Source: Planctomycetota bacterium (GTDB lineage Bacteria > Planctomycetota > UBA1135). Taken from it: a DNA stretch of 64,000 bases. The stretch's first letter is position 1; every line of letters starts with the position of its first letter. The notes below the pieces were generated by a model. The model saw only the letters and a program-made list of their open reading frames with translations, did no database searches and was not told the DNA's origin. The position numbers were made by a program, and so were the translations under genes. Below, one piece after another: positions 1 through 58,364 of this stretch. The stretch is from positions 3,469 to 67,468 of the forward strand of contig JALUVI010000009.1 of NCBI GenBank assembly GCA_027020785.1, written 5' to 3'.

Positions 1-1452
1 ATCACCCAGTCCATCGGCGCCTACGTCGCCGACCTCGGCGACGGCCGCAGCGTGACCGTGATCGACACGCCCGGCCACCAGGCCTTCACCGCCATGCGCG
101 CCCGCGGCGCGCGGGTCACCGACGTCGCAGTGCTGGTGGTCGCAGCCGACGACGGGGTCAAACCCCAGACCGAGGAAGCGGCGAGCCACGCCAAGGAGGC
201 CGGCGTGCCGATCGTGGTCGCGCTCAACAAGATCGACTCGCCAGCGGCCAACCCCGAGCAGGTCAAGTCCCAACTCTCCGGCATCGGCCTGCAGCCCGAA
301 GACTGGGGCGGCAACGTCGGTGTGATCCCGGTCAGCGCCCTGCGCAAACAAGGCATCGACGAACTGCTGGAGCGCATCCTGATCGAGGCCGAACTGCTCG
401 ACCTCAAGGCCCACCCCAAGGGCGACGCACTCGGCACCGTACTCGAGGCCGCAGTCGAGAAGGGCAAGGGCAAGGTGGCGACCGTGCTGGTCCAGGACGG
501 TACCCTCCGCCCGCGTGAAGTCGTCCTCGCCGGCACCACCTACGGCAAGGTGCGGCTGATGTTCGACCACACCGGCAAACCCGCCAAGGAGGCGCCTCCG
601 AGCACGCCGGTGCAGATCCTCGGCCTCGAAGACCTGCCCCCCATCGGAGAGCGCTTCTACGTGGTCAAGGACCTGAAGCTGGCCAAGGAGGTCGCCGAGA
701 AGCGCAAGGAACACCAGGTCGAGATCGAGCGCGCCGAGAAGGCGGCGCAGGTCGACGCCCACAACCTGTTCGAGAAGCTGGACGAATCGCTGGCCGAGCG
801 CGTGCGTTACGTCGTCAAGGCCGACGTCGTCGGTACGGTCGAGGTGTTGCGTGAATCGCTGAAGGGGCTGTCGTCCGACGAGGTCATCGTGGACGTGGTC
901 CACTCTGGTGTCGGGGTCGTCACCGAGAGCGACGTCCAGCTCGCCGAGGCTTCGCAGGCCGTGGTCCTCGCCTTCAACGTCGCCCCCGAGGGCAAGGCGC
1001 GGAAGGAAGCTGAGCGGGTGGGTGTCGAGATTCGGCGCTACGATGTCATCTACGACCTGCTCGAAGAGGTCCAGCGCGACATCGAGGGACGACTCGCCCC
1101 CGAGGTCGAGGAGCACGTCATCGGCCACGCCGAGGTGCTCGAGATCTTCCGTTCGGCGCGCTGGGGCGTCATCGCCGGTTGCCGCGTCGAGGACGGGGTG
1201 ATCAAGCGTTCCGCCAAGGCCCGGATCCTCCGTGAGGGACAGCCCATCCACGAGGCGCCGATCGAGTCGCTGCGACGCTTCAAGGACGACGTCCGCGAAG
1301 TGACGGCGCCCGACGAATGCGGCCTCAAGGTCGAAGGCTTCGAGGACTACCAGGTCGGCGACGTCGTCGAGGCCGTCGAGATCGTCGAGGTCGAGCGCAA
1401 GCTGGAGGAGGTCCTCGAGGAGGCCCAGGAAGGCGCCGGCGAGAACCGCTGA
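1..1452 (+). CDS. infB: Translation initiation factor IF-2, C-terminal part (5' end lies outside the window)
   Basis: The frame is open from nt 1. It carries the GTPase motifs 'DTPGHQAF' and 'NKID' followed by IF-2 C-terminal domains. rbfA lies immediately downstream. Confidence 0.95.
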   Translation: MTQSIGAYVADLGDGRSVTVIDTPGHQAFTAMRARGARVTDVAVLVVAADDGVKPQTEEAASHAKEAGVPIVVALNKIDSPAANPEQVKSQLSGIGLQPEDWGGNVGVIPVSALRKQGIDELLERILIEAELLDLKAHPKGDALGTVLEAAVEKGKGKVATVLVQDGTLRPREVVLAGTTYGKVRLMFDHTGKPAKEAPPSTPVQILGLEDLPPIGERFYVVKDLKLAKEVAEKRKEHQVEIERAEKAAQVDAHNLFEKLDESLAERVRYVVKADVVGTVEVLRESLKGLSSDEVIVDVVHSGVGVVTESDVQLAEASQAVVLAFNVAPEGKARKEAERVGVEIRRYDVIYDLLEEVQRDIEGRLAPEVEEHVIGHAEVLEIFRSARWGVIAGCRVEDGVIKRSAKARILREGQPIHEAPIESLRRFKDDVREVTAPDECGLKVEGFEDYQVGDVVEAVEIVEVERKLEEVLEEAQEGAGENR

Positions 1453-1874
1453 TGGCCTCTCCGAAGCGACAGCACCAGGTCGAGAAGCAAATCCTCCGGC
1501 GGCTGGCCCTGGCGCTGCAGCGCGACCTCAAGGACCCGCGGGCCGGGTTCGTGACCATCACTCGGGTCGAGATCACTGCGGACCTGACCCACGCCAAGGT
1601 GTATTGGTCCGTGCTCGACCCGCGCGAACGATCCCGGATGGAGCACGTGTTCCGTTCGGCCCACGGCTTCTTGCGCACCTTGGTCGCACGCGACCTGCAA
1701 CTGCGGAACGCACCACAGCTGTCCTTCCACTTCGACGAGAGCCTGGCCTTCGACGAGCGCCTGGAGGAGATCCTGCGGCGCGAGCGTGAGCGCAGCGCTG
1801 CAGCCACCACGGCCTCCGAAGGGCCTGTCGACGGCGAGAGCGGGCCGCGCCCCGATGACGACGCCGAAGCCTGA
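1452..1874 (+). CDS. rbfA: Ribosome-binding factor A
   Basis: The ATG at 1452 overlaps the infB TGA (TGATG). 'RVEITADLTHAKVYWSVL' and 'APQLSFHFDES' are typical of RbfA. It occupies the canonical position after infB. Confidence 0.9.
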   Translation: MASPKRQHQVEKQILRRLALALQRDLKDPRAGFVTITRVEITADLTHAKVYWSVLDPRERSRMEHVFRSAHGFLRTLVARDLQLRNAPQLSFHFDESLAFDERLEEILRRERERSAAATTASEGPVDGESGPRPDDDAEA

Positions 1875-2652
1875 CCACGCTCCGCGGCGGCTCCGCCGAG
1901 CCGAAGCGGCGCTGTCCCGCCGCACGGAACGGGTGACGGTGATCCTGGAACGCTGCAGCAAGGAGCACAACCTGCTCGCCGTGCTCCGCACCGCAGAAGC
2001 CTTCGGCATCCAGGACGTGTGGCTGGTCGGCCAGGGTTCGGCGACGCCGAAACCGCATCGGCTGAATCGCGGCGCCGAGTTCTGGCTGACCGTGCGCGCC
2101 CTCCCCGACACCGAGTCGTGTCTGGCGGCGTTACGGGACGAGGGACGCACCCTCTGGGTGGCCGACACCGGCCCCGACGCCGAGGCCCTCGACACGCCGG
2201 CCGCCATCGGTGCGGTTCCGGACCGGCTCGCCCTGGCGCTGGGCCGCGAGGCCGACGGGGCCAGCGAGGCGATGCTCGCAGCTGCAGACCGACGCATCTA
2301 CCTGCCGCTCCACGGTTTCACCGAAAGCCTGAACGTGTCGGTCGCTGCCGCGCTGCTCCTGCAGCGCATCCTCGATGCCTGCCCCGAAGCGCGGGGAGAC
2401 CTGTCCCCGGAGCGACGCGAAGCCCTCCGCCGCGAATGGTATCGGCGACTGGCCGGGAGCAAACGACCGGACCGCTTCGACGCCTGGCTCGAAGCGCCGC
2501 CGGAGCCGCTGGAGGACCTGCGCCAGCCGCCCGAGCTGCGACGTCCCCGGGTGCGCAAACGCGCGGCGCGCAGCCTGGGGATGAAGAACCTCGGCCCCAG
2601 CCCCGAGCACGGCGGCGACGACGAAGACGCAATGCGGCAGGCGGGCCGCTGA
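1855..2652 (+). CDS. SpoU/TrmH-family RNA 2'-O-methyltransferase with a C-terminal extension
   Basis: 'NLLAVLRTAEAFGIQDVWLVG', 'LALGREADGAS' and 'YLPLHGFTESLNVSVAAALLL' match the SPOUT motifs. The start is uncertain; I chose the ATG at 1855 ('MTTPK') rather than 1786. Confidence 0.75.
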   Translation: MTTPKPDHAPRRLRRAEAALSRRTERVTVILERCSKEHNLLAVLRTAEAFGIQDVWLVGQGSATPKPHRLNRGAEFWLTVRALPDTESCLAALRDEGRTLWVADTGPDAEALDTPAAIGAVPDRLALALGREADGASEAMLAAADRRIYLPLHGFTESLNVSVAAALLLQRILDACPEARGDLSPERREALRREWYRRLAGSKRPDRFDAWLEAPPEPLEDLRQPPELRRPRVRKRAARSLGMKNLGPSPEHGGDDEDAMRQAGR

Positions 2653-28208: not shown

Positions 28209-29558
28209 GTGGAGACCGGACCCGAGTCCCCGGTCCGCGAGGCGCTGCGCCTCGCCTGGCCCGCGACCCTCTCGCTGCTGCTGAACGCCGCCTACCGGGT
28301 CAACGACCAGTGGTGGATCCAGGACCTCGGCCCGGACGCCCAGGCCGCCCTCGGCGTCACCACCTTCTACCTGATCCTGAACTTCGGCCTGTTCTCGCTG
28401 CTGACCGCCGGCACGCTGGCCCGCATCGCGCGCCACACCGGGGCCCGCGACCGTGCCGGCGTGCGCCGGGTCTGGCGCAGCACCCTGACCCTGGCCGTGA
28501 TCTGGCTCGGCACGCTGGCCGTGCTCGGCTCGACGCTCTCCGACCGACTCGTCGTCCTCTCCGGCGCCCACGGCGAGGTCCGCGCCCTCGCCGCCGGCTA
28601 CCTCCGCACCATCTACCTGGTGGTCCCCCTCATCGCCTGGAAGCCGGTGGTGGACGCGGTCTTCATCGGACTCGGCAACACCTTCGTGCCGATGCTCCTC
28701 TCCGGTCTCGCGGTCGGCCTCAACTTCGTCCTCAACCCCATCCTCATCTTCGGCTGGTTCGGCCTGCCCGCGCTCGGCGTCGAGGGCGCCGCCCTCGCCA
28801 CGGGGCTGTCGCGCGGCATCGCCGGCCTCGCCGGCACCGTCATGCTGGCGCGCTGGTTCCACCTGCCGCCGCGGCTCGGCGTCCCGGCCGACCGCCGGGA
28901 GGTCCTCACCCTGTTGCGCATCGGCGCGCCGGTCTCGCTGTCCACCTCGGCCTACGCCCTGGTCTTCCTGACCGTGCTCAAGACCAGCGTCGAGCCGCTG
29001 GGGCGCGACGTCCAGGCCGGGCTCGGCGTCGCCTTCAACGGTCTGGAGTCGCTGTCCTACTGCGGGATGATGGGTCCCGCCATCGCCGCCAGCTCGCTGG
29101 TCGGCCGCCGCCTCGGCGCCGGCGACCCCCTCGGCGCCCGCCGCGGCTTCACCGCCTGCATGACGGCGAGCTGCGGCTTCGCGGCCCTGACCATGCTCGC
29201 CTTCCTGGTCGTCCCCCGCGGCCTGGCCGGCCTCTTCACCGACGACCCCCGGGTGCTGGAGCAGGCCGCGCTCTACCTCGGAGTGGTCGCCTGGAGCCAG
29301 GTCGCCACCGCGGCCGACGGGGTGCTGCAGCAGTCGCTCGCCGGCGCCGGGCGCACCCTGGCCATGTCGAGCCTCAACCTCGGCGGCTACGTGCTCCGAA
29401 TTCCGCTGGCCCGCTTCCTCTCCATGACCCAGGGCTGGGGCGCCGCCGGGGTCTGGTGGGCGCTCAACCTCTCCAACTACCTGAAGCTCGTGGCTATGAT
29501 TCTGCTCTTCCGACGGCTGCGACTCTTCGCCGCCCCTCCCCAGCGAGCCCCCGCGTGA
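28209..29558 (+). CDS. MATE-family efflux transporter
   Basis: It has a GTG start. It is polytopic with about 12 TM segments, and the N-terminal 'LAWPATLSLLLNAAYRVNDQWWI' is typical of MATE proteins. Confidence 0.85.
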   Translation: METGPESPVREALRLAWPATLSLLLNAAYRVNDQWWIQDLGPDAQAALGVTTFYLILNFGLFSLLTAGTLARIARHTGARDRAGVRRVWRSTLTLAVIWLGTLAVLGSTLSDRLVVLSGAHGEVRALAAGYLRTIYLVVPLIAWKPVVDAVFIGLGNTFVPMLLSGLAVGLNFVLNPILIFGWFGLPALGVEGAALATGLSRGIAGLAGTVMLARWFHLPPRLGVPADRREVLTLLRIGAPVSLSTSAYALVFLTVLKTSVEPLGRDVQAGLGVAFNGLESLSYCGMMGPAIAASSLVGRRLGAGDPLGARRGFTACMTASCGFAALTMLAFLVVPRGLAGLFTDDPRVLEQAALYLGVVAWSQVATAADGVLQQSLAGAGRTLAMSSLNLGGYVLRIPLARFLSMTQGWGAAGVWWALNLSNYLKLVAMILLFRRLRLFAAPPQRAPA

Positions 29559-29611
29559 CGGTTCCCACCCCCTTCATCCAACCCCGGGACTACCCGCCCG
29601 ACCGCGTCTTC

Positions 29612-30046
29612 ATGACCCAGGAGGAGGTCATGCGGCGCAACCCCCAGCGCTTCGAGTTCCTCCAGGTCGACTCCATCCTGCACCTCGACCTCGAGGAGAA
29701 CCTGGTGGTGGGGCACCGCGTCCTGCGCGAGGACGAGTTCTGGGCCCGCGGCCACCTGCCGGGGCGTCCGCTGTTCCCCGGGGTCCTGATGTGCGAGACG
29801 ATGGCGCAGGTCGCGAGCATCCACGCTCACATGTACCTCGAGTTGGAGGAGGACGTGTTCATGGGCTTCGGCGCGCTCGACAAGGTGCGCTTCCGCGAGG
29901 CCATCGCTCCGCCCGCGAACCTCTGGGTCGCCGGCCGCATCATGAAGGCGTCGCGGGTCCGCCCCTACTTCTCGTGGGAGGGCCAGCTCCTGACCGAGGA
30001 GGGCAAGGTCGCGGCCCAGGCGCAGATCACCGGCGTCGGGCTCTGA
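29612..30046 (+). CDS. FabZ/FabA-like hot-dog dehydratase
   Basis: 'RFEFLQVDSIL' and 'GHLPGRPLFPGVLMCETMAQ' match the FabZ 'HFP..P..PGVL..E..AQ' motif. An alternative GTG start at 29555 overlaps the MATE stop. Confidence 0.75.
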   Translation: MTQEEVMRRNPQRFEFLQVDSILHLDLEENLVVGHRVLREDEFWARGHLPGRPLFPGVLMCETMAQVASIHAHMYLELEEDVFMGFGALDKVRFREAIAPPANLWVAGRIMKASRVRPYFSWEGQLLTEEGKVAAQAQITGVGL

Positions 30047-30095: not shown

Positions 30096-30950
30096 CTACT
30101 CGCCGCCGTCGGGCGGCAGGATGGCCATGACGTCGAGCTCCCGGCAGTGGCAGGCGACGCCCAGGAGCTCGGACAAGGACGGTCGGGTCCGCCCCTCCTC
30201 TCCGCTGATGGCTTCCTTGACGTAGGTGCCGTGTGCGGTGCGCAGCAGCAGCAGCCACTCCTCGCCGTCCTGCTCCCAGTCGAGGAGCTGGACCCAGCGC
30301 TTGCGCTCCATCATGGCGCGCCGGTGCTGGACCCGGGCCGGCGTGGTCTGGACCACCTCCACCCGGCCCCGCTCCTGGAGCGCGGCCAGGCGCCGCTCCA
30401 TCTCGTCGGCGGCGAGCCCCTCACCGTCGAAGCGCACCCGCACCCGATACTCCTTGGCGCAGCGGCTCTCCTTGATCTCGGGGATGCGCTTGCGCCCGCA
30501 CAGCCGCAGCCCGCGGACCTCGATGCGCCCCTCCCAACGGCGGTTGATCTCGGCCTCGAGCTCGGCCACGTCGGCCTCGGGCCGGGCCGCCTTGACCAGC
30601 TCGAGCACGAACGGCCGGCCCTCGCCGAGCATGCGCACGTCGAGGTCCTCGCGTCCGGCTCCGTGGAACTTGTTGGTGCGCGCCTTGAAACGCGGCATCG
30701 CGACCCGCGCGATCAGCTCCTGCACCGAGTCGCGGGTCAGCTTGCCGAAGCCCTCGCAGCGCTCGCACCCCCGTCCCTTGCAATCGGGGCAGTAGAAGAT
30801 GGTCTGCGGGAGGTCGCGGACCAGCTTGCGGTAGCGCCCCTCGATGTAGACCTTGACCCGGGGCCGCTTGGGGGCGGCCGGCCGGTTGGCGTCCTCGGCG
30901 GGCGTCGGGGCGGCGTTCTCGCCGCCGGCTTGGGGCTGGGTCTCGGGCAA
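30096..30950 (-). CDS. Pus10-family tRNA pseudouridine synthase, catalytic domain only (no THUMP domain)
   Basis: 'GRYRKLVRDLPQT' and 'CPDCKGRGCERCEGFGK' are present. The catalytic motif is 'GREDLDVRMLGEGRPF'. 'TPARVQHRR' and 'GTYVKEAISGEEGRTRPS' also match. There is no in-frame ATG. I propose TTG at 30950. Upstream codons are the antisense shadow of lgt. Confidence 0.75.
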   Translation of the reverse strand: MPETQPQAGGENAAPTPAEDANRPAAPKRPRVKVYIEGRYRKLVRDLPQTIFYCPDCKGRGCERCEGFGKLTRDSVQELIARVAMPRFKARTNKFHGAGREDLDVRMLGEGRPFVLELVKAARPEADVAELEAEINRRWEGRIEVRGLRLCGRKRIPEIKESRCAKEYRVRVRFDGEGLAADEMERRLAALQERGRVEVVQTTPARVQHRRAMMERKRWVQLLDWEQDGEEWLLLLRTAHGTYVKEAISGEEGRTRPSLSELLGVACHCRELDVMAILPPDGGE

Positions 30951-30965
30951 GGGTAGGATGCGGGC

Positions 30966-31925
30966 GTGTGGCCTGAACTGTTCCGCCTTCCGGTGATCGA
31001 CGTGCCGCTGCGCAGCTTCGGGCTGTTGCTGGGGCTGGGCTTCCTGACGGCGGTGTGGATGGGGGCGCGCCTGGCCGCGCGCTACGGTTCCGACCCGAAG
31101 CGCGACCCGGAGCGTCTCTACGACGTCGCTTGGTGGGTGCTGATCGGGGTCGTGGCGGGCGCGCGGTTGGCCTTCGTGCTGATCAACCTGCCGCACTACC
31201 TGGAGCACCCCCTGGACGTCGTCAAGATCTGGGAGGGGGGTCTGGTGATGTACGGCGGCCTCATTCTAGCCCTGGTCCTCGGCGGCTGGAAGGTGAAGCG
31301 GCTCGGGATGCCGCTGTGGCGCACCGCCGACTACGGCCTGACCGCCGGCTTCCTCGGCCAGGCCATCGGTCGCCTCGGCTGTCTCGCGGTCGGCGACGAC
31401 TACGGCGCCCCCACCAGCGTCCCCTGGGCCATCACCTTCCCCGACCCCCTGCCGCGGGGCAGCGCCTTCCCACCCGAACTGGCCGGCGTCCCGGTCCACC
31501 CCACCCAGCTCTACCTGGCGCTCGCCGCCTTCGGCCTGTTCCTGCTCGGCCTGTGGTTGCTCCCGCGCAAGCGCTTCCACGGCCAGGTGGTGGCGGTGCT
31601 GCTCGTGGCCTACGCCGTGAGCCGCTTCGTCATCGAGGCCTTCCGCGGCGACGCTCTGGCCCGCCGCGGCCTGTTCCGCGCCGGAGCGACTCCGGAGGAC
31701 GCCATCGCCCGCCTCGCCGAACACGGGGTGCGGGTGGACCCCGCCGGCCGCATCATGGACCCGGACCGCTACCGCGAGCTGCTCCTCCAGGGCGTCGAGG
31801 GCATCCGCCCCGAGCTCCTGCTCTCGACCTCGCAGATGATCTCCATCGCCGTGGTCGTGTTCGGGCTGGGGCTCTACCTGGTCCTCGGCCGTCGTCCCGA
31901 GCTGCGGGTCACCCCCGACGCGTGA
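30966..31925 (+). CDS. lgt: Prolipoprotein diacylglyceryl transferase with a C-terminal extension
   Basis: It has a GTG start. Motifs are 'YGGLILALV', 'GQAIGRLGC' and 'VHPTQLY'. Confidence 0.9.
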   Translation: MWPELFRLPVIDVPLRSFGLLLGLGFLTAVWMGARLAARYGSDPKRDPERLYDVAWWVLIGVVAGARLAFVLINLPHYLEHPLDVVKIWEGGLVMYGGLILALVLGGWKVKRLGMPLWRTADYGLTAGFLGQAIGRLGCLAVGDDYGAPTSVPWAITFPDPLPRGSAFPPELAGVPVHPTQLYLALAAFGLFLLGLWLLPRKRFHGQVVAVLLVAYAVSRFVIEAFRGDALARRGLFRAGATPEDAIARLAEHGVRVDPAGRIMDPDRYRELLLQGVEGIRPELLLSTSQMISIAVVVFGLGLYLVLGRRPELRVTPDA

Positions 31926-31926
31926 G

Positions 31927-32892
31927 GTGGCCTTCCTCGCCGGGGTGGACGAAGCCGGGTACGGGCCTCCGCTCGGTCCCCTCGTCGTCGGCCACGCCCT
32001 GTTCCGGGTCCCCGACCCCGAGGTCCGGCTCGGCTCGGTGCTGCGCCGCGCCGCGGCCCCCGGCCCGCGCCGCAGCCAACGCGACCGACGGCTGTGGCTG
32101 GACGACAGCAAGAAGGTCCACCAGGGCCCGCACGGGCGGCGGCGCATGGCGCGCACCGTGGCCGCCTTCCGTCGGCTGATGGGCGCCGAGGACCCGGCGC
32201 TCGCGAGCTGGGTCGCCGAGCCGCCCTGCGGCGACGCCCGGCTCCTCCACGCCGCACCGTGGTTCCTGGAGCTGGACGGTCCGCTGTGCCCGGAGGCCTC
32301 GCCCGATCGAGCCCGCCTGGACGCGGCGCTCCTCGGCCGTCACCTCGACCGCGGCGGCTGCGGTTTCGCCGGCTTCGGCGCCCGCGTCGTCCCCGCGGTG
32401 GAATGGAACGGCCTGCTCGACGACCACGGCAACAAGGGCGCGGCCCACGCCGCGGTGGTCTTCCCCATCCTGGTCCACCTGGTCGAACGCGTCGCCGGGG
32501 CCCCCCTCCGCATCGAGGTGGACCGCCTCGGCGGGCGCATCCGCTACGGCGCGTTGTTGCGCCGCCACTTCCCCGACGCGCGGATCGAGGTGCACGACGA
32601 AGGCCCGGCGGCCTCGCTCTACACCCTGCACCTGCCCGAGCGCAGCCCGGTCCAGGTCCGCTTCTCGGAGGGCGCCGACGGCCGCCACGCCCAGACCGCT
32701 CTGGCCTCGCTGGCCGCCAAGCAGACCCGCGAGCGCCTGATGGACCTCTTCAACGACTGGTTCGCAGCGCACGACCCAGCCTTGGAACCGACCCGCGGCT
32801 ACGCCCAGGACGCCAACCGCTGGCTGGCCGACGCCGCCCCCCTCCTCGAGCGCCTCGCCCTCGACCGCCGCCTGCTGGTGCGCGAGCGCTAG
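31927..32892 (+). CDS. Divergent RNase HII-like domain protein (321 aa)
   Basis: It has a GTG start. 'GVDEAGYGPPLGPLVV' can be compared with RNase HII 'G.DEAGRGP..GP.V'. 'DDSKKV' and 'ADGRHAQTALASLAAKQTR' can be compared with '..D....VAAASI.AK..R'. A large insertion lies between these motifs. Confidence 0.5.
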   Translation: MAFLAGVDEAGYGPPLGPLVVGHALFRVPDPEVRLGSVLRRAAAPGPRRSQRDRRLWLDDSKKVHQGPHGRRRMARTVAAFRRLMGAEDPALASWVAEPPCGDARLLHAAPWFLELDGPLCPEASPDRARLDAALLGRHLDRGGCGFAGFGARVVPAVEWNGLLDDHGNKGAAHAAVVFPILVHLVERVAGAPLRIEVDRLGGRIRYGALLRRHFPDARIEVHDEGPAASLYTLHLPERSPVQVRFSEGADGRHAQTALASLAAKQTRERLMDLFNDWFAAHDPALEPTRGYAQDANRWLADAAPLLERLALDRRLLVRER

Positions 32893-42608: not shown

Positions 42609-42685
<77 letters not shown>

Positions 42686-42701
42686 CTCCCGCCGGGAGGG
42701 G

Positions 42702-42777
42702 TGGAGCCAGCGACGAGACTCGAACTCGTGACCGCCGCTTTACGAAAGCGGTGCTCTACCAACTGAGCTACGCTGGC
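42702..42777 (-). tRNA. tRNA-Thr (anticodon CGT), CCA encoded
   Basis: On the minus strand the acceptor stem is GCCAGCG/CGCTGGC and the D arm GCTC-AGTTGGTA-GAGC. The anticodon stem is CCGCT/AGCGG with loop TTCGTAA. The T arm is ACGAG-TTCGAGT-CTCGT. Confidence 0.9.
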
Positions 42778-51861: not shown

Positions 51862-53652
51862 ATGGCCCGCTACCTCGTCACCTCGGCCCTGCCCTACGCC
51901 AACGGCCCCATCCACTTCGGGCACGTCGCGGGAGCCTACCTGCCGGCCGACGTCTGGGTGCGCCACCGGCGGATGTGCGGGGACGACGTCCTGTTCGTGT
52001 GCGGCACCGACGAGCACGGGGTCGCCATCACCCTGCAGGCCGAGCGCGAGGGGGTGGGCTACCGCGAATACGTGGACCGCTGGCACCAGGAGATCGGGTG
52101 CACCTTCGAACGCTTCGGAATCCGCTTCGACGCCTGGAGCGGCACCGCCCGCAGTCCGCACCACGTCGAGTTCTCGCAGCGCTTCTTCCGGGTGCTGCTC
52201 GAGCGCGGGTTCGTGTTCGAGCGCGAGGAGGAGCAGTGGTTCTCCGAAGCCAGCGGGCGCTTCCTGCCCGACCGCTACCTCCAGGGCGCCTGCCCCGAGT
52301 GCGGTCACCCCGAGGCCCGGGGCGACGAGTGCCCGAAGTGCGGCGCCTGGATCGAGGCGCGCAAGCTGGGCGATCCGATCAGCCTGGTGGACGGGAGTCG
52401 GCCGGTGCTGAAACGCACCAAGCACTGGTACCTCGACCTGCCGAAGCTGCTCGACGCCGGTCTGCGCGACTGGTACGAGGAGCGCAAGGCCGCCGGGGCA
52501 TGGAAACCGAACGTGGTCGGCTACGTGGACGCCATGCTCGCCGACCTCAAGCCCCGTCCCATCACGCGAGACCTGCCCTGGGGGGTGCCGGTGCCGCCGG
52601 AGCTGCCGGGCAGCGAGGGCAAGGTGCTCTACGTGTGGTTCGACGCGCCCATCGGTTACGTCAGCATCACCGAGGAGTGGGCCCAAGCGCAGGGTGCGCC
52701 CGAGTCGTGGCGCGACTGGTGGATGGACGCCGACACCCGACTGGTCCACTTCATCGGCAAGGACAACATCGCCTTCCACGTCGTGGTGTTCCCGGGCATG
52801 CTGCTCGGCCAGGACGCCGACCCGACGTGGCAGCCCGCTTCGCAGGCCCCCATCGAGCCGCGCTCCTTCGTCCTGCCGTGGAACGTGCCGGCGAACGAGT
52901 TCTACAACCTGCAGGGGCGCAAGTTCAGCACCTCGCAGGGCTGGACCCTCGACATGGACCGCTTCTTCGAGCGCTACTCGGTGGACGCGGCCCGCTTCCA
53001 CCTGGTGCTGACCATGCCGGAGACGGCCGACAGCGAGTTCCGCTGGGAGGAGTTCCAGACCACCAACAACTCCCTGCTCGCCGACAAGATCGGCAACTTC
53101 GCCTCACGGGTGCTGCAGTTCGCGCGCAAGCGCTACTCCGGACGGGTGCCGGGGCCCGCCACTCGCCAGCCCTTGCTCGCCGACCACGAAGCCCTGCGCG
53201 ACGCCCGCGCCGCCTTCGCCCGGGTCGGCGACGAGCTCGACGCGTTCCGCTTCCGCGCCGCGGCGCGGGGGCTGGTCCAGGGCTTCGCCGACCTCAACCG
53301 CTTCTTCGACGCGATGGAGCCGTGGAAGCTGGTCAAGTCCGAGGCCGACGACGACCGCGCCCGCTGCGCCGAGGTGGTGGAGCGCTGCCTCGCCCACCTC
53401 GAGCTCGGCAGCCGGCGGCTGGCTCCGTTCTGCCCCGACGCGGCCGCACGGTTGCGCGCCATGCTCGGGGAGGCGGCCCGCCCCGAGGACGCCGGGCGCT
53501 GGGGCGGCGAGGGGCCCGACCAGCCGCCCACACGCCTGCCCGAGGGCGCCGAGCTCGGCGAGGTCGGCATCCTGTTCCGCAAGATCGAGGACGCCGAGGT
53601 CGAGGAGGAGGTCCGGCTCCTCCACGAACGGGCCGGGGAACTCCGGGCCTAG
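51862..53652 (+). CDS. metG: Methionyl-tRNA synthetase
   Basis: 'PYANGPIHFGH' is the HIGH-type motif, 'CPECG...CPKCG' the zinc knuckles and 'KFSTSQG' the KMSKS-type motif. Confidence 0.95.
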   Translation: MARYLVTSALPYANGPIHFGHVAGAYLPADVWVRHRRMCGDDVLFVCGTDEHGVAITLQAEREGVGYREYVDRWHQEIGCTFERFGIRFDAWSGTARSPHHVEFSQRFFRVLLERGFVFEREEEQWFSEASGRFLPDRYLQGACPECGHPEARGDECPKCGAWIEARKLGDPISLVDGSRPVLKRTKHWYLDLPKLLDAGLRDWYEERKAAGAWKPNVVGYVDAMLADLKPRPITRDLPWGVPVPPELPGSEGKVLYVWFDAPIGYVSITEEWAQAQGAPESWRDWWMDADTRLVHFIGKDNIAFHVVVFPGMLLGQDADPTWQPASQAPIEPRSFVLPWNVPANEFYNLQGRKFSTSQGWTLDMDRFFERYSVDAARFHLVLTMPETADSEFRWEEFQTTNNSLLADKIGNFASRVLQFARKRYSGRVPGPATRQPLLADHEALRDARAAFARVGDELDAFRFRAAARGLVQGFADLNRFFDAMEPWKLVKSEADDDRARCAEVVERCLAHLELGSRRLAPFCPDAAARLRAMLGEAARPEDAGRWGGEGPDQPPTRLPEGAELGEVGILFRKIEDAEVEEEVRLLHERAGELRA

Positions 53653-53930
53653 GCCCGGGAGCCGACCGTCTCGCGCCAGGCCCGGGCGGCGCGGAAGACG
53701 ATGACCGACGAGGCCGGGAGCTGGATGGTCTCGCCGTTGGAGGGATGCTTCAGCGTCCGAGGGGCCCGCTCGCGGACGCTCCACGCCCCGAAACCGGGGA
53801 GCGTCACCTCGCCGTCCTCGGCCAGGCCCTCACGAATGCCCTGACAGACCACCTGGACGATGTCCTCGGCTGCGGAGCGCGTGGTCTCGAGCTCGCGGCG
53901 GACGTACTCGACGAGATCGCGTTTGTTCAT
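53649..53930 (-). CDS. HU/IHF-family DNA-binding protein
   Basis: 'MNKRDLVEYV' and 'LPGFGAWSVRERAPRTLKHPSNGETIQLPASSVIVFRA' match the HU arm region. The length is 93 aa. Confidence 0.85.
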   Translation of the reverse strand: MNKRDLVEYVRRELETTRSAAEDIVQVVCQGIREGLAEDGEVTLPGFGAWSVRERAPRTLKHPSNGETIQLPASSVIVFRAARAWRETVGSRA

Positions 53931-54027
53931 GAGGGGGCGCGGGAGGTGACGAAAGGGCGAACCGAGAAGGAGGGCAGGCCCTGGATTCCTGCGGAGTCCA
54001 GAGCCTGCGGGGCGTCCAAGGGACGGG

Positions 54028-54441
54028 TCAGCGCTTGCGGCGCGTGGTCTTCCGCTTGGCGGGCTTCCGCTTCGCGGCCTTCTTCTTGGCGGGCTTGCGC
54101 TTGGTGGCCTTCTTCTTGGTCGCCTTGCGCTTGGTCGCCTTCTTCTTGGTGGCCTTGCGCTTGGTCGCCTTCTTCTTGGTCGCCTTGCGCTTGGTGGCCT
54201 TCTTCTTGGTGGCCTTGCGCTTGGTGGCCTTCTTCTTGGTGGCCTTGCGCTTGGTCGCCTTCTTCTTGGTCGCCTTCTTCTTGGTCGCCTTGCGCTTGGT
54301 CGCCTTCTTCTTGGTCACCTTGCGCTTGGTCGCCTTCTTCTTGGTCGCCTTGCGCTTGGCGGGCTTCCGCTTCGCGGTCTTGCGCTTGGCGGGCTTCCGC
54401 TTCGCGGTCTTCCGTTTGGTAGCTTTCTTGCGAACAGCCAT
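54028..54441 (-). CDS. Histone H1-like lysine-rich repeat protein (137 aa; K/R/A/T only)
   Basis: The start is the ATG at 54441 ('MAVRKKATKRK'). The body consists of (ATKRKATKKK)n repeats. A perfect repeat periodicity is kept in frame. It has its own upstream region after the rpmB terminator. Confidence 0.7.
   Translation of the reverse strand: MAVRKKATKRKTAKRKPAKRKTAKRKPAKRKATKKKATKRKVTKKKATKRKATKKKATKKKATKRKATKKKATKRKATKKKATKRKATKKKATKRKATKKKATKRKATKKKATKRKPAKKKAAKRKPAKRKTTRRKR
54091..54360. repeat. Approximately 30-nt (15+15) tandem repeat array inside the H1-like gene
   Basis: Units of the form 'ggccttgcgcttggtSgccttcttcttggt' repeat head to tail, with a 15-nt phase shift near 54271. 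Confidence 0.9.
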
Positions 54442-54589
54442 GTCTTCCTTTTCTGGATCCAGTGGAAATCGGCGCAGCCGTCGCTGGGACGACCGGCCGG
54501 GGGGAGACGAACCCGCGATGCCGTGGTCGCGACCACGACATCTGGGTCCTTCCCCCCTGCCATCGGCGGACGGACCGTGGAATTCACCG

Positions 54590-54635
54590 GGAAAACCGAA
54601 AAAATGCACCGACCCCGACTCGGAGTCGGGGTCGG
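54590..54635 (-). terminator. Rho-independent terminator downstream of rpmB
   Basis: On the minus strand the stem is CCGACCCCGACTC/GAGTCGGGGTCGG (54609-54635). GGTGCATTTTTTCGGTTTTCC follows it. Confidence 0.6.
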
Positions 54636-54672
54636 TCGGGGAGGTCGGCGCCCGAGCGCCGAAGGGCGCGGG

Positions 54673-54987
54673 TCAGCCCTGGTCGCGGCTGCGCAACCAG
54701 GCGCGATTGCGCCCGCGCACCGCCTTCACGAGCGGCACGGTCACGGTGCGACCGCCCATCTCCAGCTCGAGCTTCCCGGACTTGATGACCGAGGTCGCGA
54801 GCTTCATCCGCTTGACGGTCCCATCCGGCAGCAGGACCCGGACCTTCTGCACGTTCGCCTTGAAGGTCCGCTTGGTGTGGCCGGTGGTCTTGAGGCCCAC
54901 GCCTCCCTTCTTCTTGGGGAGACCGCGACGGGCGATGCTTCCGCCCGCACGGGTGCCTTTTCCGGTGATTTCGCAGCGTCTGGCCAT
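54673..54987 (-). CDS. rpmB: 50S ribosomal protein L28 (long form)
   Basis: The start is the ATG at 54987. 'MARRCEITGKG' and 'TKRTFKANVQKVRV...DGTVKRMKLATSVIKSGK' match the bL28 pattern. Confidence 0.8.
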   Translation of the reverse strand: MARRCEITGKGTRAGGSIARRGLPKKKGGVGLKTTGHTKRTFKANVQKVRVLLPDGTVKRMKLATSVIKSGKLELEMGGRTVTVPLVKAVRGRNRAWLRSRDQG

Positions 54988-55364
54988 GGGGGTACCTCCT
55001 CGGTGAGAGGGGCCGCACAGTCTAGGGAGGGGCCGGGCGCCCGTCAATCGGGCCTCGCCCGGAAACTGGCCATCCAGGGTGTGCCGACCCGTGGCGCAGG
55101 GGCGACGCACGCCGAGATCGCGTCCCCAGGGCAGACCTCCCCCGGTGCGGGGCCTTCCTGGCCTCGCTCGGTGCCACACGGTGCGCCCCGAGGCCCCGCT
55201 CCGGCCCCGGACCCACCGATCCTGCGCTGCGACACCCCTGGAGACGCGCCAGGACCGCCCAGGTCGCACGTTTCCTCCGCCAGCACACCCTGGATGGCCA
55301 GTTTCCGACCGAGGTTGACCGGAACGCCGGCCGGAGGGACAATCGGCGCCCACTCCGGAGGAAG

Positions 55365-55446
55365 GCCGCGGGAGAGACCCGGCGGACGTCCGGGCACCGA
55401 AGGGGCAAGCCAGGCGGCGAAACTCTCAGGTACCCAGGACCGCGGC
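55365..55446 (+). promoter_or_regulatory. Glycine riboswitch aptamer
   Basis: P1 is GCCGCG (55365-70) paired with CGCGGC (55441-46). The core elements are GGAGAG (55371-76), CACCGAAGGGGCAA (55395-408) and CTCTCAGG...GGAC (55423-40). It lies directly upstream of gcvT. A degenerate second aptamer may lie at about 55238-55364. Confidence 0.75.
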
Positions 55447-55478
55447 CCGACGGAGCCTGGACCGTCTTCGGACCGGAC

Positions 55479-55513: not shown

Positions 55514-56611
55514 ATGGAACCCACCACCGAACCCGCCCCGGCGAACGAGCCGCTCGCCACCCCGCTCCTCGCTGCGCACCGCGCGCTCGGCGGACGCATC
55601 GTGCCCTTCGCCGGGTGGAGCATGCCGCTCGACTACGGCTCCATCCTCGAGGAGTCGCGCGCGGTGCGCGAGACGGCCGGGCTGTTCGACGTCTCGCACA
55701 TGGGCCGTTTCTTCCTCCACGGCCCCGAGGTCGGCGCCGCGCTCGACCGCGCGCTCGGCGGCCGCATCGAGGACCTGCCGGTCGAGATGGCCCGCTACAC
55801 CCTGATCCTCGACGAGGGGGGCGGCATCCTCGACGACCTCCTGGTGTACCGACTCGGCGAGGACGACTGGATGCTGGTGGTCAACGCGGCCAACCGCGAG
55901 CGCGACGCCGCGGTGCTGCGCGAACGGCTCGCCCCCCTGGCCCTCGACGACCGCACCCGCGACGGCGGCGGCATCCTCGCGCTGCAGGGCCCCGAGTCGC
56001 CGCGGCTGGTCGCGGCGGTCGCCCCCGGCGCCGAGGACCTCCCCTTCCTCGGACTCGGCCGGTTCGACGCGCCGTGGGGGCCGTTGCTCGTCGCCCGCAC
56101 CGGCTACACCGGAGAGCGCGGCTACGAGCTGTTCCCGACCGCCGCGCAACTGGTCCCGCTGTGGGAACGCCTGCTCGAACTCGGCGCCCGCCCGGTCGGG
56201 CTCGGCGCCCGCGACGTGCTCCGCCTGGAGGCGGCGATGCCGCTCTACGGCCACGAGATCCACGAGGGCGTGGACCCGCGCGAAGCTGGGCTCGGCTTCG
56301 CCATCCGCGGCTGGAAGGAGCGCGACTTCGTCGGCGGCGACGCCCTGCGCGCGGCCGGGCCGCCGCGGCGCGAGCTGGTCGGCCTCACCGCCGAGAAGCG
56401 CGTCCCCCGCCAGGGCTACCCGGTGCTCGCCGGCGACCGCGTGGTCGGCGAGGTCTGCTCCGGCGCCTGGTCGGCCGCCCTCGACCGCCCCATCGCCACC
56501 GCCCTCGTCGAACGCGGCGTGGACGGTCCGCTCGCCGTGGACCTCCGCGGCAAGCCCCTGCCCGTGGAACGGGTTCCCCTCCCCTTCGTCCCCCATCGCT
56601 CCCGCGACTGA
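55514..56611 (+). CDS. gcvT: Glycine cleavage system T protein (aminomethyltransferase)
   Basis: 'PFAGWSMPLDYGS', 'GLFDVSHMG' and 'ARTGYTGERGYEL' are present. Confidence 0.95.
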   Translation: MEPTTEPAPANEPLATPLLAAHRALGGRIVPFAGWSMPLDYGSILEESRAVRETAGLFDVSHMGRFFLHGPEVGAALDRALGGRIEDLPVEMARYTLILDEGGGILDDLLVYRLGEDDWMLVVNAANRERDAAVLRERLAPLALDDRTRDGGGILALQGPESPRLVAAVAPGAEDLPFLGLGRFDAPWGPLLVARTGYTGERGYELFPTAAQLVPLWERLLELGARPVGLGARDVLRLEAAMPLYGHEIHEGVDPREAGLGFAIRGWKERDFVGGDALRAAGPPRRELVGLTAEKRVPRQGYPVLAGDRVVGEVCSGAWSAALDRPIATALVERGVDGPLAVDLRGKPLPVERVPLPFVPHRSRD

Positions 56612-56620
56612 ACCGCACCC

Positions 56621-57004
56621 ATGCGCCCCACCGACCGCCGCTACACCGAAAGCCACGAATGGGCCCTCGCCGAGGGCGACGTCGTGACCATCGGCATCAC
56701 CGACCACGCCGTCGAGGAACTCGGCGAACTCGTCTACCTCGACCTGCCCGAGCCGGGACGCACGCTGGCCCGCGGAGAAGCCTTCGGCGAAGTCGAATCC
56801 GTCAAGGCCGTCTCCGACCTGATGGCGCCCGTGGGCGGCGAGGTGGTCGAGGTCAACCAGGCCCTGGTGGACGACCTGGCCGGCCTGCAGGACGCCCCGT
56901 TCACCGACGGCTGGCTGATCAAGGTCCGCCCCGCCGCCGGCGAGTCGCTGGACGACCTCCTCGACGCGGCCGCCTACGACGAACTGGTCCGCGCCTCGGC
57001 CTGA
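56621..57004 (+). CDS. gcvH: Glycine cleavage system H protein
   Basis: 'YTESHEW' and the lipoyl-lysine motif 'VESVKAVSDL' are present. Confidence 0.95.
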   Translation: MRPTDRRYTESHEWALAEGDVVTIGITDHAVEELGELVYLDLPEPGRTLARGEAFGEVESVKAVSDLMAPVGGEVVEVNQALVDDLAGLQDAPFTDGWLIKVRPAAGESLDDLLDAAAYDELVRASA

Positions 57005-57005
57005 C

Positions 57006-58364
57006 ATGCCCTACGTCCAGAACTCCGACCGCGACCGGGCCGCGATGCTCGAGCGGGTCGGCGTCGGCTCGGTGGACGAGCTGTTCGCACCGATCCCCGA
57101 GGCCCTGCGGCTGACCGAGCCGCCCCCCATCGGCCCCGGAACCACCGAGGACGGGCTGGTCCGCGCCCTCGACGAGCTCGCCGCCCGCAACCGCCCGAGC
57201 GACGGCGGCGCCTGCTTCCTCGGCGGCGGCGCCTACGACCACGGCTGGCTGGCGCTGGTGGACCACGTCATGCAGCGCAGCGAGTTCCTGACCGCCTACA
57301 CCCCCTACCAGCCCGAGTGCTCGCAGGGGACGCTGCAGTGGATCTTCGAGTTCCAGACCATGATCGCCGACCTCTGCGGCATGGAGGTCGCGAACGCTTC
57401 CATGTACGACGGCGCGTCGGCCGCGGCCGAGGCGGCGGTCCTGGCCCTGGCCCAGACCCGCCGCTCGCGCATCGTGGTCTCGGCCGGGCTGCACCCGCAC
57501 ACGCGCCAGACCCTCCGCACCTACCTGACCCACCTCGAGGTGGACATCGTCGAGGCGCCGCTCGGCGCCGACGGCCGCACCGACTGGGGCGAGCTGGTGG
57601 ACGACGCCACCGCCGCGGTCCTGGTCCAGCAGCCGAACTTCGTCGGCGCCGTCGAGGAGCTCGGCCCGGTGGCCGACGCCGCCCACGGCCACGGCGCCCT
57701 GGCGGTCGCCTCCATCTACCCGGTGGCGATGGGGCTCCTGCGCTCGCCCGGCGAGGCCGACTTCGACGTGGTGGTCGGCGACGGGCAGTCGCTCGGCGTC
57801 CCGCTCGCCTTCGGCGGCCCGGCCTTCGGCTTCTTCGCCACGCGACAGGCCTTCGTGCGCCGCATGCCCGGCCGCCTGGTCGGCCAGAGCGTGGACCGCG
57901 AGGGGCGCCGCGCCTTCACCCTCGCCTTCCAGACCCGCGAGCAGCACATCCGCCGCGAGAAGGCGACCAGCAACATCTGCACCAACAACTCGCTGATGGC
58001 GCTGCGCGGCTGCGTCCACCTCGCCACCCTCGGCCCGCGCGGGCTCGAGGAGGTGGCGCTGGCGTCGCGCCGGCGCGCGCTCGAGGTCGCCGCCGGCCTC
58101 GAGGCCCTCGGCATCCCGCGAGCCTTCCCCGACACGCCGTTCTTCAACGAGCCGGCGTTCCGGCTCGCCGACGACCATGAGGTGGCGCGGTTCCGCGCCG
58201 CCCTGGCCGAACATGGCATCCGCGGTGGACTGGCGCTGGGCGGAGACTACCCCGAGCTCGCCGGCGTCTTCACCCTGGCCTGCACCGAACGGGTCCAGGA
58301 CGACGACGTGGCCCGGCTGCTGGCCGCGGCCCGCGCCTTCCAGACCCAGGAGGTGGCCTCGTGA
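57006..58364 (+). CDS. gcvPA: Glycine dehydrogenase (decarboxylating), subunit 1
   Basis: 'FLGGGAYDH' and 'AYTPYQPECSQGTLQ' are present. It occupies the expected operon position. Confidence 0.95.
   Translation: MPYVQNSDRDRAAMLERVGVGSVDELFAPIPEALRLTEPPPIGPGTTEDGLVRALDELAARNRPSDGGACFLGGGAYDHGWLALVDHVMQRSEFLTAYTPYQPECSQGTLQWIFEFQTMIADLCGMEVANASMYDGASAAAEAAVLALAQTRRSRIVVSAGLHPHTRQTLRTYLTHLEVDIVEAPLGADGRTDWGELVDDATAAVLVQQPNFVGAVEELGPVADAAHGHGALAVASIYPVAMGLLRSPGEADFDVVVGDGQSLGVPLAFGGPAFGFFATRQAFVRRMPGRLVGQSVDREGRRAFTLAFQTREQHIRREKATSNICTNNSLMALRGCVHLATLGPRGLEEVALASRRRALEVAAGLEALGIPRAFPDTPFFNEPAFRLADDHEVARFRAALAEHGIRGGLALGGDYPELAGVFTLACTERVQDDDVARLLAAARAFQTQEVAS

What the first reader, a model, noticed from the sequence alone, without database searches (positions are those of the whole stretch)
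30096..30950. Bacterial Pus10-type pseudouridine synthase lacking the THUMP/zinc-ribbon N-domain
The ORF carries Pus10 hallmarks: 'GRYRKLVRDLPQT', a CxxC...CxxC knuckle, the catalytic 'GREDLDVRMLGEGRPF', 'TPARVQHRR' and 'GTYVKEAISGEEGRTRPS'. Pus10 is the archaeal and eukaryal tRNA Psi54/Psi55 synthase, whereas bacteria normally use TruB.

There is no room here for the N-terminal THUMP domain of about 160-200 aa. The divergent lgt gene starts at 30966, and upstream codons of the listed ORF are its antisense shadow. No in-frame ATG exists, so I propose TTG at 30950.

A THUMP-less bacterial Pus10 raises the question of how it recognises tRNA and what its target is.
Basis: partly seen in the sequence, partly recalled or inferred. 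Interest (0 to 1): 0.65.

Follow-up and report, generated by a model that had tools for sequence, protein, structure and literature searches.

The report
THUMP-less archaeal-type Pus10 in Planctomycetota
This bacterial gene encodes only the catalytic half of Pus10, the tRNA pseudouridine synthase that reviews say is absent from bacteria; it represents a large, conserved and unstudied planctomycete clade that acts as a natural test of what the missing RNA-binding domain is for.

Summary
Window 30096-30950 (-) encodes a 284-aa protein that is a complete Pus10 catalytic domain and nothing else.

- **Family match:** Pfam Pus10_C scores E 1.8e-61 over the whole profile. TIGR01213 gives 268.6 bits, but only on profile positions 161-401 of 402. 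The predicted fold matches human PUS10 (TM 0.75).
- **Active site:** the catalytic Asp102, the other active-site residues, the Cys-rich forefinger loop and the HRR thumb loop are invariant among 44 homologues.
- **No N-terminal domain:** the proposed TTG start coincides with ATG starts in orthologues. Codon-position GC flips just upstream, where divergent lgt begins. In many related loci an in-frame stop lies within 60 codons of the domain.
- **A real clade:** hundreds of 250-310-aa Planctomycetota proteins form a monophyletic group (98/100 bootstrap). They are under purifying selection and sit in a conserved lgt/Pus10/FabZ-like neighbourhood. The nearest relatives are DPANN-type archaeal Pus10 with shortened N-domains.
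- **Likely role:** a tRNA T-loop Ψ55 synthase, possibly also Ψ54, acquired from archaea.
- **Open question:** whether truB is absent could not be tested. truB is not in the window and does not follow rbfA.

Annotation pipelines already name these proteins Pus10, but the literature does not describe them.

The parts
30096..30950 (-). Complete CDS of the THUMP-less Pus10 (284 aa, TTG start at 30950, stop codon 30096-30098)
   Evidence: The start is supported by ATG-starting orthologues and by the codon-position GC switch.
30858..30950 (-). N-terminal tail, residues 1-31: Pro/Ala/Gln-rich, variable in length and sequence among homologues, predicted disordered. It is not a domain.
   Evidence: Alignment A1 is poorly conserved and gappy in these columns. 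Mean pLDDT is 45, 61 and 85 for the first three blocks of ten residues; the first strand begins at residue 32.
30120..30857 (-). Pus10 catalytic domain (residues 32-277)
   Evidence: Pfam PF21238 aligns to residues 35-277. AlphaFold2 model has pLDDT 88.1, and the Foldseek top hit is 2V9K with TMq 0.75 and rmsd 2.7. BLASTP gives 41% identity to Methanocaldococcus villosus Pus10 residues 183-428.
30756..30791 (-). Forefinger loop with four invariant cysteines (C54, C57, C62, C65), a presumed zinc knuckle. It is equivalent to segments ffl1/ffl2 of M. jannaschii Pus10.
   Evidence: The cysteines are invariant in 44 sequences. The loop aligns without gaps to Methanocaldococcus Pus10, is present in other archaeal full-length Pus10, and is an 11-residue gap in human PUS10. 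The functional role of ffl1/ffl2 comes from PMC3753934. Zinc binding is inferred.
30633..30656 (-). Catalytic motif GREDLDVR (G99-R106): R100, catalytic D102, D104
   Evidence: Motif located. R100, E101 and D102 are invariant. They correspond to MjPus10 R273/D275/D277 and to human D344 by alignment.
30318..30326 (-). Thumb-loop H209-R210-R211, equivalent to the MjPus10 H376/R377 'hook'
   Evidence: Invariant in A1. Aligned to HRR in Methanocaldococcus Pus10. Role taken from PMC3753934.
30213..30233 (-). HGTYVKE (H240-E246): V244/K245 are equivalent to MjPus10 I412/K413. Y168 (30447-30449) and L272 (30135-30137) complete the active-site set.
   Evidence: H240, G241, T242, Y243, K245, E246, Y168 and L272 are invariant. 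Spacing relative to D102 matches the MjPus10 numbering.
30966..31925 (+). Context: divergent lgt. Its GTG start lies 15 nt from the Pus10 TTG, so it bounds the Pus10 N-terminus.
   Evidence: Pfam LGT E 6.4e-55. lgt is divergent and adjacent in 44 of 57 related loci that have at least 1.2 kb of upstream sequence.
29555..30046 (+). Context: convergent FabA/FabZ-like dehydratase gene, 49 nt from the Pus10 stop
   Evidence: Pfam FabA E 2.2e-16. Convergent and adjacent in 35 of 57 related loci. The same order occurs in L006.
1..2652 (+). Context bearing on truB: infB (1-1452, partial), rbfA (1452-1874), then a SpoU-family methyltransferase (1933-2652) in the position that truB occupies in E. coli
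   Evidence: Pfam IF-2, RBFA and SpoU_methylase. The ENA copy of the contig shows nusA-infB-rbfA-SpoU with cysS opposite. E. coli operon order infB-rbfA-truB-rpsO-pnp.

Best explanation
The gene encodes an active, stand-alone pseudouridine synthase made only of the Pus10 catalytic domain. An ancestor of an uncultured Planctomycetota lineage most likely acquired it from an archaeon of DPANN type, and the gene has since been inherited vertically next to lgt.

Its most likely job is the same as that of archaeal Pus10. It would bind the T-arm of tRNA between the Cys-rich forefinger loop and the HRR thumb loop, flip out U55 (and possibly U54), and isomerise it using Asp102. Acceptor-stem/CCA contacts from a THUMP domain would not be needed.

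**Shown:** family membership, intact active site, absence of the N-domain, clade-wide conservation under purifying selection, and bacterial context.

**Inferred:** the substrate (tRNA U55, with or without U54), zinc binding by the four cysteines, the archaeal donor, and any relation to TruB.
For: **Family and fold**
- Pfam Pus10_C full-length match, E 1.8e-61.
- TIGR01213 scores above its cutoff, on the C-terminal 60% of the profile only.
- Human PUS10 E 1.5e-30.
- AF2 model pLDDT 88; the top structural hit is 2V9K (TMq 0.75), and the next families (TruA, Cbf5, TruB) are far weaker.

**Active site**
- R100/D102/D104, Y168, V244/K245 and L272 match the seven MjPus10 core residues listed in PMC3753934.
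- The forefinger loop has the same length as in Methanocaldococcus Pus10, with four invariant Cys, and the thumb HRR is invariant.

**Plausibility without THUMP**
- A 17-mer T stem-loop is a sufficient substrate for MjPus10 Ψ54 and Ψ55 activity (PMC3753934).
- N-domain Cys and basic residues matter for Ψ54 but not for Ψ55 (PMC12710931).

**Substrate present**
- Both tRNAs in the window have canonical G53-U54-U55-C56 T-loops.

**A real gene**
- GC3 of 0.95, like its neighbours.
- dN/dS of 0.18-0.39 against close orthologues.
- 63 invariant columns among 44 homologues that are 55-73% identical to the window protein.

**Clade**
- Monophyly has 98/100 NJ bootstrap support.
- Synteny with lgt is conserved.

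**Archaeal affinity**
- The nearest non-clade relatives are 45-48% identical and are named Diapherotrites or 'archaeon'.
- In the NJ tree the clade joins a group of Pus10 with short N-domains, one of which sits in an archaeal-type mevalonate/thiolase-DUF35 context.
Against: - No activity, expression or modification data exist for any member.
- The THUMP-containing domain is reported to contribute to tRNA binding by P. furiosus Pus10 (Kamalampeta et al. 2013; from my own knowledge, paper not held), so a bare catalytic domain might be inefficient on tRNA.
- No compensating domain was found. The eight clade-specific basic positions are only suggestive, and the domain's net charge is not higher than in archaeal Pus10.
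- If the genome also encodes TruB, a Ψ55 role would be redundant, and another target would better explain the strong conservation.
- The NJ sister relationship rests on one simple distance tree, and most sequences in it have no taxon label.
Confidence: 0.62

Rival explanations
1. The enzyme is active but has been retargeted. Having lost the acceptor-stem-measuring THUMP domain, it would modify a different RNA: a T-loop-like motif in rRNA, tmRNA or mRNA, or another tRNA position. TruB would still make Ψ55.
For: The THUMP domain is the element thought to dock the acceptor/CCA end (PMC9957541), so losing it could relax or change specificity. Strong conservation across a wide clade argues for a non-redundant role, which fits this reading if truB is present. 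Eight basic positions are specific to the bacterial clade. Human PUS10 has non-tRNA roles.
Against: The forefinger and thumb loops, which grip the T-arm, are unchanged relative to Methanocaldococcus Pus10. A T stem-loop alone suffices for MjPus10. No insertion or new domain is present that could read another RNA.
Confidence: 0.22
2. The gene is split. The catalytic domain works with a separately encoded THUMP/zinc-ribbon protein, or another RNA-binding partner, that restores acceptor-stem recognition.
For: Several THUMP proteins act as separate partners of catalytic subunits, for example Tan1-Kre33 and THUMPD1-NAT10 (PMC9957541). Only 64 kb of this genome could be inspected.
Against: No THUMP hit was found in the 30 window proteins scanned against Pfam or NCBIfam. 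No THUMP-like gene is next to Pus10 in the annotated orthologous locus, nor in L003, read from its ORF list. The conserved neighbours are lgt and a FabA-like gene.
Confidence: 0.08
3. It is an artefact: archaeal contamination or a chimeric assembly, a decaying pseudogene, or a mis-called start that hides an N-domain.
For: The window comes from a metagenome assembly. The gene has a rare TTG start only 15 nt from a divergent gene.
Against: The same gene order is found on many independent contigs from JGI, ENA, NCBI and Logan. Codon composition is identical to the flanking bacterial genes. dN/dS is below 0.4. In-frame stops close upstream occur in many orthologues. ATG starts occur at the same position in orthologues.
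Confidence: 0.02

Closest known systems
Archaeal Pus10 (tRNA Ψ54/Ψ55 synthase; TIGR01213, COG1258, K07583), e.g. Methanocaldococcus jannaschii/villosus Pus10
   Same: The catalytic domain is 41% identical over its whole length with only 7 gaps. It has the same active-site residues, a forefinger loop of the same length with four Cys, and the same HRR thumb loop.
   Different: The roughly 160-200-aa N-terminal accessory domain (zinc ribbon plus THUMP; Pfam PF22023 in archaeal hits) is missing entirely. The host is a bacterium. Eight positions are basic only in the bacterial clade.
DPANN-type archaeal Pus10 with shortened N-domains (322-350 aa, e.g. Candidatus Diapherotrites MCD6434179.1 = P0126; P0129, P0131, P0471), plus sporadic archaeal THUMP-less forms (P0204, 244 aa)
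   Same: These are the closest sequences outside the clade, at 45-48% identity, and the NJ neighbour group. They show that the N-domain has been reduced repeatedly. P0204 lacks it altogether and sits in an archaeal context of S19e, Rpr2 and diphthamide synthase.
   Different: Most still keep about 60-125 aa of THUMP-like N-terminus. The THUMP-less archaeal cases seen here are isolated sequences, not a large coherent clade. Their gene context is archaeal.
Human PUS10 (PDB 2V9K)
   Same: It is the best structural match: TMq 0.75, rmsd 2.7 Å, 32% identity to the catalytic domain, residues 288-520.
   Different: Human PUS10 has a large N-terminal accessory domain and lacks the 11-residue Cys knuckle in the forefinger region.
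Bacterial TruB (tRNA Ψ55 synthase)
   Same: It is the probable functional analogue, because it modifies the same T-loop uridine. Both share the general pseudouridine synthase core fold (Foldseek hits 1R3E and 1ZE1 at TM about 0.4).
   Different: It is a different family. The window protein has no TruB motif and no PUA domain, and tblastn with E. coli TruB finds nothing in the window or in 93 related loci.

Membership tests
Pus10 (Pfam PF21238 Pus10_C; NCBIfam TIGR01213) | Significant full-length match to the Pus10 catalytic-domain profile | tested here: met
   PF21238 E 1.8e-61, profile positions 1-231 of 232. TIGR01213 scores 268.6 bits against a cutoff of 200.
Pus10 | Catalytic Asp in the R-x-D-x-D motif (MjPus10 R273/D275/D277), plus a conserved Tyr, an Ile/Val-Lys pair and a Leu (Y339, I412/K413, L440) | tested here: met
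   R100, D102, Y168, K245 and L272 are invariant in 44 homologues. D104 and V244 are conserved but not invariant (Asn and Ile in some homologues). All align to the Methanocaldococcus residues.
Pus10 | Forefinger and thumb loops that pinch the T-arm | tested here: met
   The forefinger C54-V76 has the same length as in Methanocaldococcus Pus10. The thumb H209-R211 is invariant.
Pus10 | Catalytic-domain fold like 2V9K | tested here: met
   Foldseek E 1.4e-23, TMq 0.75, rmsd 2.7 Å; model pLDDT 88.1.
Pus10 | N-terminal accessory domain with a four-Cys zinc site and a THUMP fold | tested here: not met
   TIGR01213 positions 1-160 are unmatched. Only 31 disordered residues precede the domain. The upstream frame is non-coding. 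The domain is absent clade-wide.
Pus10 | Distribution restricted to Archaea and Eukarya, as stated in reviews | tested here: not met
   The context is bacterial: lgt, rbfA, AnmK and KdsB-like. NCBI labels clade members Planctomycetota. Reviews say Pus10 is absent in Bacteria.
Pus10 | Ψ55 and/or Ψ54 synthase activity on tRNA | not testable with these tools
   This needs an in vitro assay or complementation of an E. coli truB (trmA) mutant.
TruB | TruB motif II (HxGTLDP with the catalytic Asp) and a C-terminal PUA domain | tested here: not met
   There is no TruB-type motif in any frame of the window. Pfam and NCBIfam give only Pus10.

The most novel reading that the evidence does not exclude
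In this Planctomycetota lineage, a catalytic-domain-only Pus10 captured from archaea has displaced TruB as the tRNA Ψ55 synthase. Because it keeps the Methanocaldococcus-type forefinger and thumb determinants, it may also write Ψ54. That would give a bacterium an archaeal-style Ψ54-Ψ55 T-loop instead of m5U54-Ψ55. It would also show that the THUMP domain is dispensable for Pus10 function in vivo.
Probability: 0.3. Interest if true: 0.78.

Novelty: new variant of a known kind. Interest (0 to 1): 0.58.

Why it matters
**It contradicts the reviews.** Reviews up to 2025 state that Pus10 is absent from Bacteria (PMC7912444, PMC9957541, PMC12710931). Yet a widespread bacterial clade, found in marine, freshwater, soil and mat metagenomes, carries it. 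These proteins are known only to annotation pipelines.

**It is a natural deletion experiment.** The clade is a ΔTHUMP, ΔZn-ribbon Pus10 kept under selection for a long time. That makes an open question directly testable: what the Pus10 accessory domain contributes to tRNA recognition and to the choice between U54 and U55.

**If truB is missing from these genomes:**
- It would be a clean case of inter-domain non-orthologous displacement of one of the most conserved tRNA modification enzymes.
- It could also be the first bacterial tRNA with Ψ54.

**Practical value.** The 250-aa enzyme would be the smallest Pus10 available for structural work with RNA. No RNA-bound Pus10 structure exists yet (PMC12710931).

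Tried and rejected
**1. truB co-occurrence.**
- I searched the window in six frames for TruB, RluA, TruA and TruD motifs and found none.
- I ran tblastn with E. coli TruB against the window plus 93 loci (937 kb) and got no hit. These loci all cover the same neighbourhood, so the result says little about whole genomes.
- I tried the operon route. The window carries nusA-infB-rbfA followed by a SpoU methyltransferase, not truB. A relative's rbfA is followed by a uvrA-like gene. truB is therefore simply unlinked in this group, and synteny cannot settle its presence.

**2. Exact look-up of the window's own Pus10 (P0001)** found no record. The contig was identified through RbfA instead.

**3. Literature.** Four searches (Pus10 with bacteria and THUMP, with Planctomycetes, 'bacterial Pus10', and COG1258) found no description of bacterial Pus10. 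Fitzek 2018, Kamalampeta 2013 and Gurha 2008 are not held.

**4. THUMP-less archaeal donor.** I tested whether P0127 (248 aa) represents a family of THUMP-less archaeal Pus10. It is a singleton among full-length Thermoplasmatota proteins.

**5. First monophyly test failed.** Two GC-rich bacterial fragments (P0212, P0242) had been labelled archaeal by my numbering rule. With them relabelled, support was 98/100.

**6. Expression signals.** Promoter, terminator and hairpin scans around the gene gave nothing usable in this 71% GC sequence.

**7. Charge compensation rejected.** The domain's net charge is not higher than in archaeal Pus10.
Full report
**1. The observation**

The minus-strand ORF ending at 30096 is real.

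- Pfam assigns residues 35-277 to Pus10_C (PF21238) at E 1.8e-61, covering profile positions 1-231 of 232.
- NCBIfam's Pus10 equivalog TIGR01213 scores 268.6 bits against a cutoff of 200, but aligns only to profile positions 161-401 of 402. The first 160 positions, which form the N-terminal accessory domain, have no counterpart.
- Among solved structures the only significant sequence match is human PUS10 (2V9K), residues 288-520, E 1.5e-30.
- An AlphaFold2 model built on 44 homologues has mean pLDDT 88.1. Its best structural match is 2V9K (E 1.4e-23, TMq 0.75, rmsd 2.7 Å). TruA, Cbf5 and TruB follow at TM 0.35-0.52.
- No other pseudouridine synthase signature occurs anywhere in the window.

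**2. The N-terminus**

The stop-to-stop frame runs up to 31265, and the ORF listing offers a 370-aa version starting at GTG 31208. That extension is not coding.

- Codon-position GC (positions 1/2/3) is 0.74/0.47/0.95 inside 30096-30950.
- In 30951-31208 it becomes 0.92/0.44/0.73. That is the mirror image of lgt on the other strand, at 0.73/0.43/0.93.
- lgt (Pfam LGT, E 6.4e-55) starts at GTG 30966, 15 nt from the TTG.
- Orthologues P0002 and P0006 begin MPETHPQP and MPETDPQP with ATG at the position of the window's LPETQPQ. P0007 was also called from TTG.

Eighty related loci were fetched from metagenomes. In 74 loci (these plus earlier ones and the window) the upstream in-frame stop lies within the held sequence.

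- In 34 of the 74 the stop lies 60 codons or fewer before the EGRY motif, and in 47 of the 74 it lies 90 or fewer.
- Where the upstream frame stays open for longer, it lacks coding composition, and in most of those loci lgt lies on the opposite strand.

The 31 residues before the domain are Pro/Ala/Gln-rich, unalignable among homologues and of low confidence in the model. There is therefore no room for a THUMP/zinc-ribbon domain, and no hidden frameshift.

**3. What is conserved**

In the 44-sequence alignment, whose members are 55-73% identical to the window protein, 63 columns are invariant.

Joardar et al. (PMC3753934) list the catalytic-core residues of M. jannaschii Pus10: R273, D275, D277, Y339, I412, K413 and L440. 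A BLASTP alignment to Methanocaldococcus villosus Pus10 (41% identity, residues 34-284 against 183-428, seven gaps) maps these onto the window protein as R100, D102, D104, Y168, V244, K245 and L272.

- It aligns without gaps to the Methanocaldococcus loop.
- It is present in other full-length archaeal Pus10 (P0124, P0135, P0138).
- It is an 11-residue gap in human PUS10.
- It corresponds to the segments ffl1 (Cys227-Arg231) and ffl2 (Cys238-Val249). Deleting these abolishes Ψ54 formation by MjPus10 but not Ψ55 formation.

The thumb-loop H209-R210-R211 is invariant and matches the MjPus10 H376/R377 "hook".

The knuckle is therefore a normal archaeal catalytic-domain feature and not a remnant of the N-terminal zinc ribbon. 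Zinc binding itself is inferred.

**4. A clade, not an oddity**

- The word-indexed search returned 4,600 hits. The best 120 are 239-344 aa, carry only PF21238, and where named are "Planctomycetota bacterium" MAG proteins. PGAP and IMG call many of them Pus10.
- At 50% clustering the clade collapses to a handful of representatives. The next hits, at 45-48% identity, are archaeal Pus10 with N-terminal domains. Those that carry names are Candidatus Diapherotrites or unclassified "archaeon".
- In a neighbour-joining tree of 172 catalytic domains the bacterial sequences form one group with 98/100 bootstrap support. That group joins 17 sequences whose N-termini are only 62-125 aa.
- One of those 17, P0471, lies among mevalonate-pathway genes with the thiolase/HMGCS/DUF35 trio, a context consistent with an archaeon.
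- Fully THUMP-less Pus10 also occurs sporadically in archaea. P0204 (244 aa) sits beside S19e, Rpr2 and diphthamide synthase genes. P0127 is a singleton among full-length PF22023+PF21238 proteins.
- The Planctomycetota group is thus the only large coherent THUMP-less clade seen here.

**5. A functional bacterial gene**

- Its composition equals that of its neighbours.
- dN/dS against the closer orthologues is 0.18-0.39.
- The order MatE, FabA/FabZ-like, Pus10 (convergent), lgt (divergent), RNase HII-like is the same in a 61%-identical orthologue on a 1.7 Mb contig.
- lgt is divergent and adjacent in 44 of 57 loci with enough upstream sequence, and lies within about 3 kb in 11 more. The FabA-like gene is convergent and adjacent in 35 of 57.
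- Other window genes are typically bacterial: nusA-infB-rbfA, AnmK, KdsB-like, Kdo kinase and a heptosyltransferase.
- Contamination, chimerism and pseudogene status are effectively excluded.

**6. Mechanism**

*Shown:* an intact Pus10 active site with forefinger and thumb loops, and no accessory domain.

*From the literature:*
- A 17-mer T stem-loop is a sufficient substrate for MjPus10 Ψ54 and Ψ55 activity.
- N-domain cysteines and basic residues matter for Ψ54 but not for Ψ55.
- MjPus10 and PfuPus10 work in E. coli.

*Inferred:* the protein binds the tRNA T-arm directly and converts U55 to Ψ55.

Whether it also makes Ψ54 is open. The forefinger and thumb determinants argue for it, while the missing N-domain argues against. 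Both tRNAs in the window have canonical GUUC T-loops.

No compensating RNA-binding module exists. Eight positions are basic in at least 84% of the bacterial sequences but in at most 23% of the archaeal ones (K33, R73, R91, position 92, K94, R137, R138, R155). The domain's net charge, however, is not higher than in archaeal Pus10, so I treat these positions only as a lead.

**7. truB**

- truB is not in the window.
- It does not follow rbfA, where E. coli has it. A SpoU-family methyltransferase occupies that position.
- A relative's rbfA is likewise not followed by truB, so linkage is uninformative in this group.
- tblastn with E. coli TruB found nothing in 937 kb of held sequence, but that sequence is all one neighbourhood.
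It is the single most informative missing result.

**8. Comparison with what is known, and novelty**

Three reviews (2021, 2023, 2025) state that Pus10 is absent from Bacteria. Four literature searches found no paper describing a bacterial or planctomycete Pus10. Automated annotation (PGAP, IMG, COG1258/K07583) already names these proteins Pus10.

I therefore rate it a new variant of a known kind. It is a genuine Pus10 by catalytic-domain criteria, but it fails two features usually given for the family: the N-terminal THUMP accessory domain and the archaeal/eukaryal distribution.

**9. Verdict**

- Interest is moderate to high for tRNA-modification specialists. The clade is a naturally selected ΔTHUMP Pus10 in bacteria, cheap to test by E. 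coli complementation.
- The upside is a possible case of TruB displacement, or of bacterial Ψ54.

Noticed in passing
window 1-2652 (+): infB (partial), rbfA, then a SpoU-family RNA 2'-O-methyltransferase sit where E. coli has truB. The best NCBIfam resemblance is TrmH (tRNA Gm18), at 73.5 bits against a cutoff of 227, so the protein is unassigned. G18 is the tertiary partner of Ψ55, which may be coincidence. The ENA gene call gives 265 aa, overlapping the end of rbfA.
   Followed up: partly
window 31927-32892 (+): A 321-aa RNase HII-like protein lies directly after lgt. It has only weak, split matches to RNase HII profiles (N-terminal residues about 3-27 and 220-284). It is longer than canonical RNase HII and is conserved in 53 of the related loci.
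   Followed up: partly
window 30950-30966: The start codons of Pus10 (TTG, minus strand) and lgt (GTG, plus strand) are only 15 nt apart and divergent. The promoters must therefore lie inside the opposite gene, or the mRNAs are leaderless. No sigma-70-like site was found. The Pus10-lgt pairing is conserved in 44 of 57 loci.
   Followed up: partly
window 55359-55452 (+): A glycine riboswitch aptamer (Rfam RF00504, 62.5 bits) lies upstream of what look, by inspection only, like the glycine-cleavage genes gcvT, gcvH, gcvPA and gcvPB (55514-59830) and a lipoate-protein-ligase-like gene (59827-60546). This is an ordinary arrangement.
   Followed up: no
window 42609-42777: tRNA-Pro(TGG) on the plus strand and tRNA-Thr(CGT) on the minus strand are convergent with only 16 nt between their 3' ends. 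Both have canonical GUUCGA T-loops.
   Followed up: partly
window 53649-54900 (-): A Lys/Ala-rich repetitive protein with AKRK-type repeats (54028-54441), resembling histone H1, lies between an HU-like gene (53649-53930) and what looks like rpmB/L28 (54673-54900). These identifications are by inspection only.
   Followed up: no
L003 (CAZABP010000079.1): This contig is labelled 'uncultured candidatus Brocadiaceae' but is very GC-rich, like the rest of the clade. It has a response-regulator gene, rather than lgt, directly upstream of Pus10. The bin label may be wrong.
   Followed up: no
P0062, P0079, P0063, P0097 (homologues): Some clade members carry low-complexity insertions, such as PAVEA repeats between the two halves of the catalytic domain, or long acidic/Pro-rich N- or C-terminal tails. 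The core therefore tolerates insertions at the loop around window residues 176-182.
   Followed up: no
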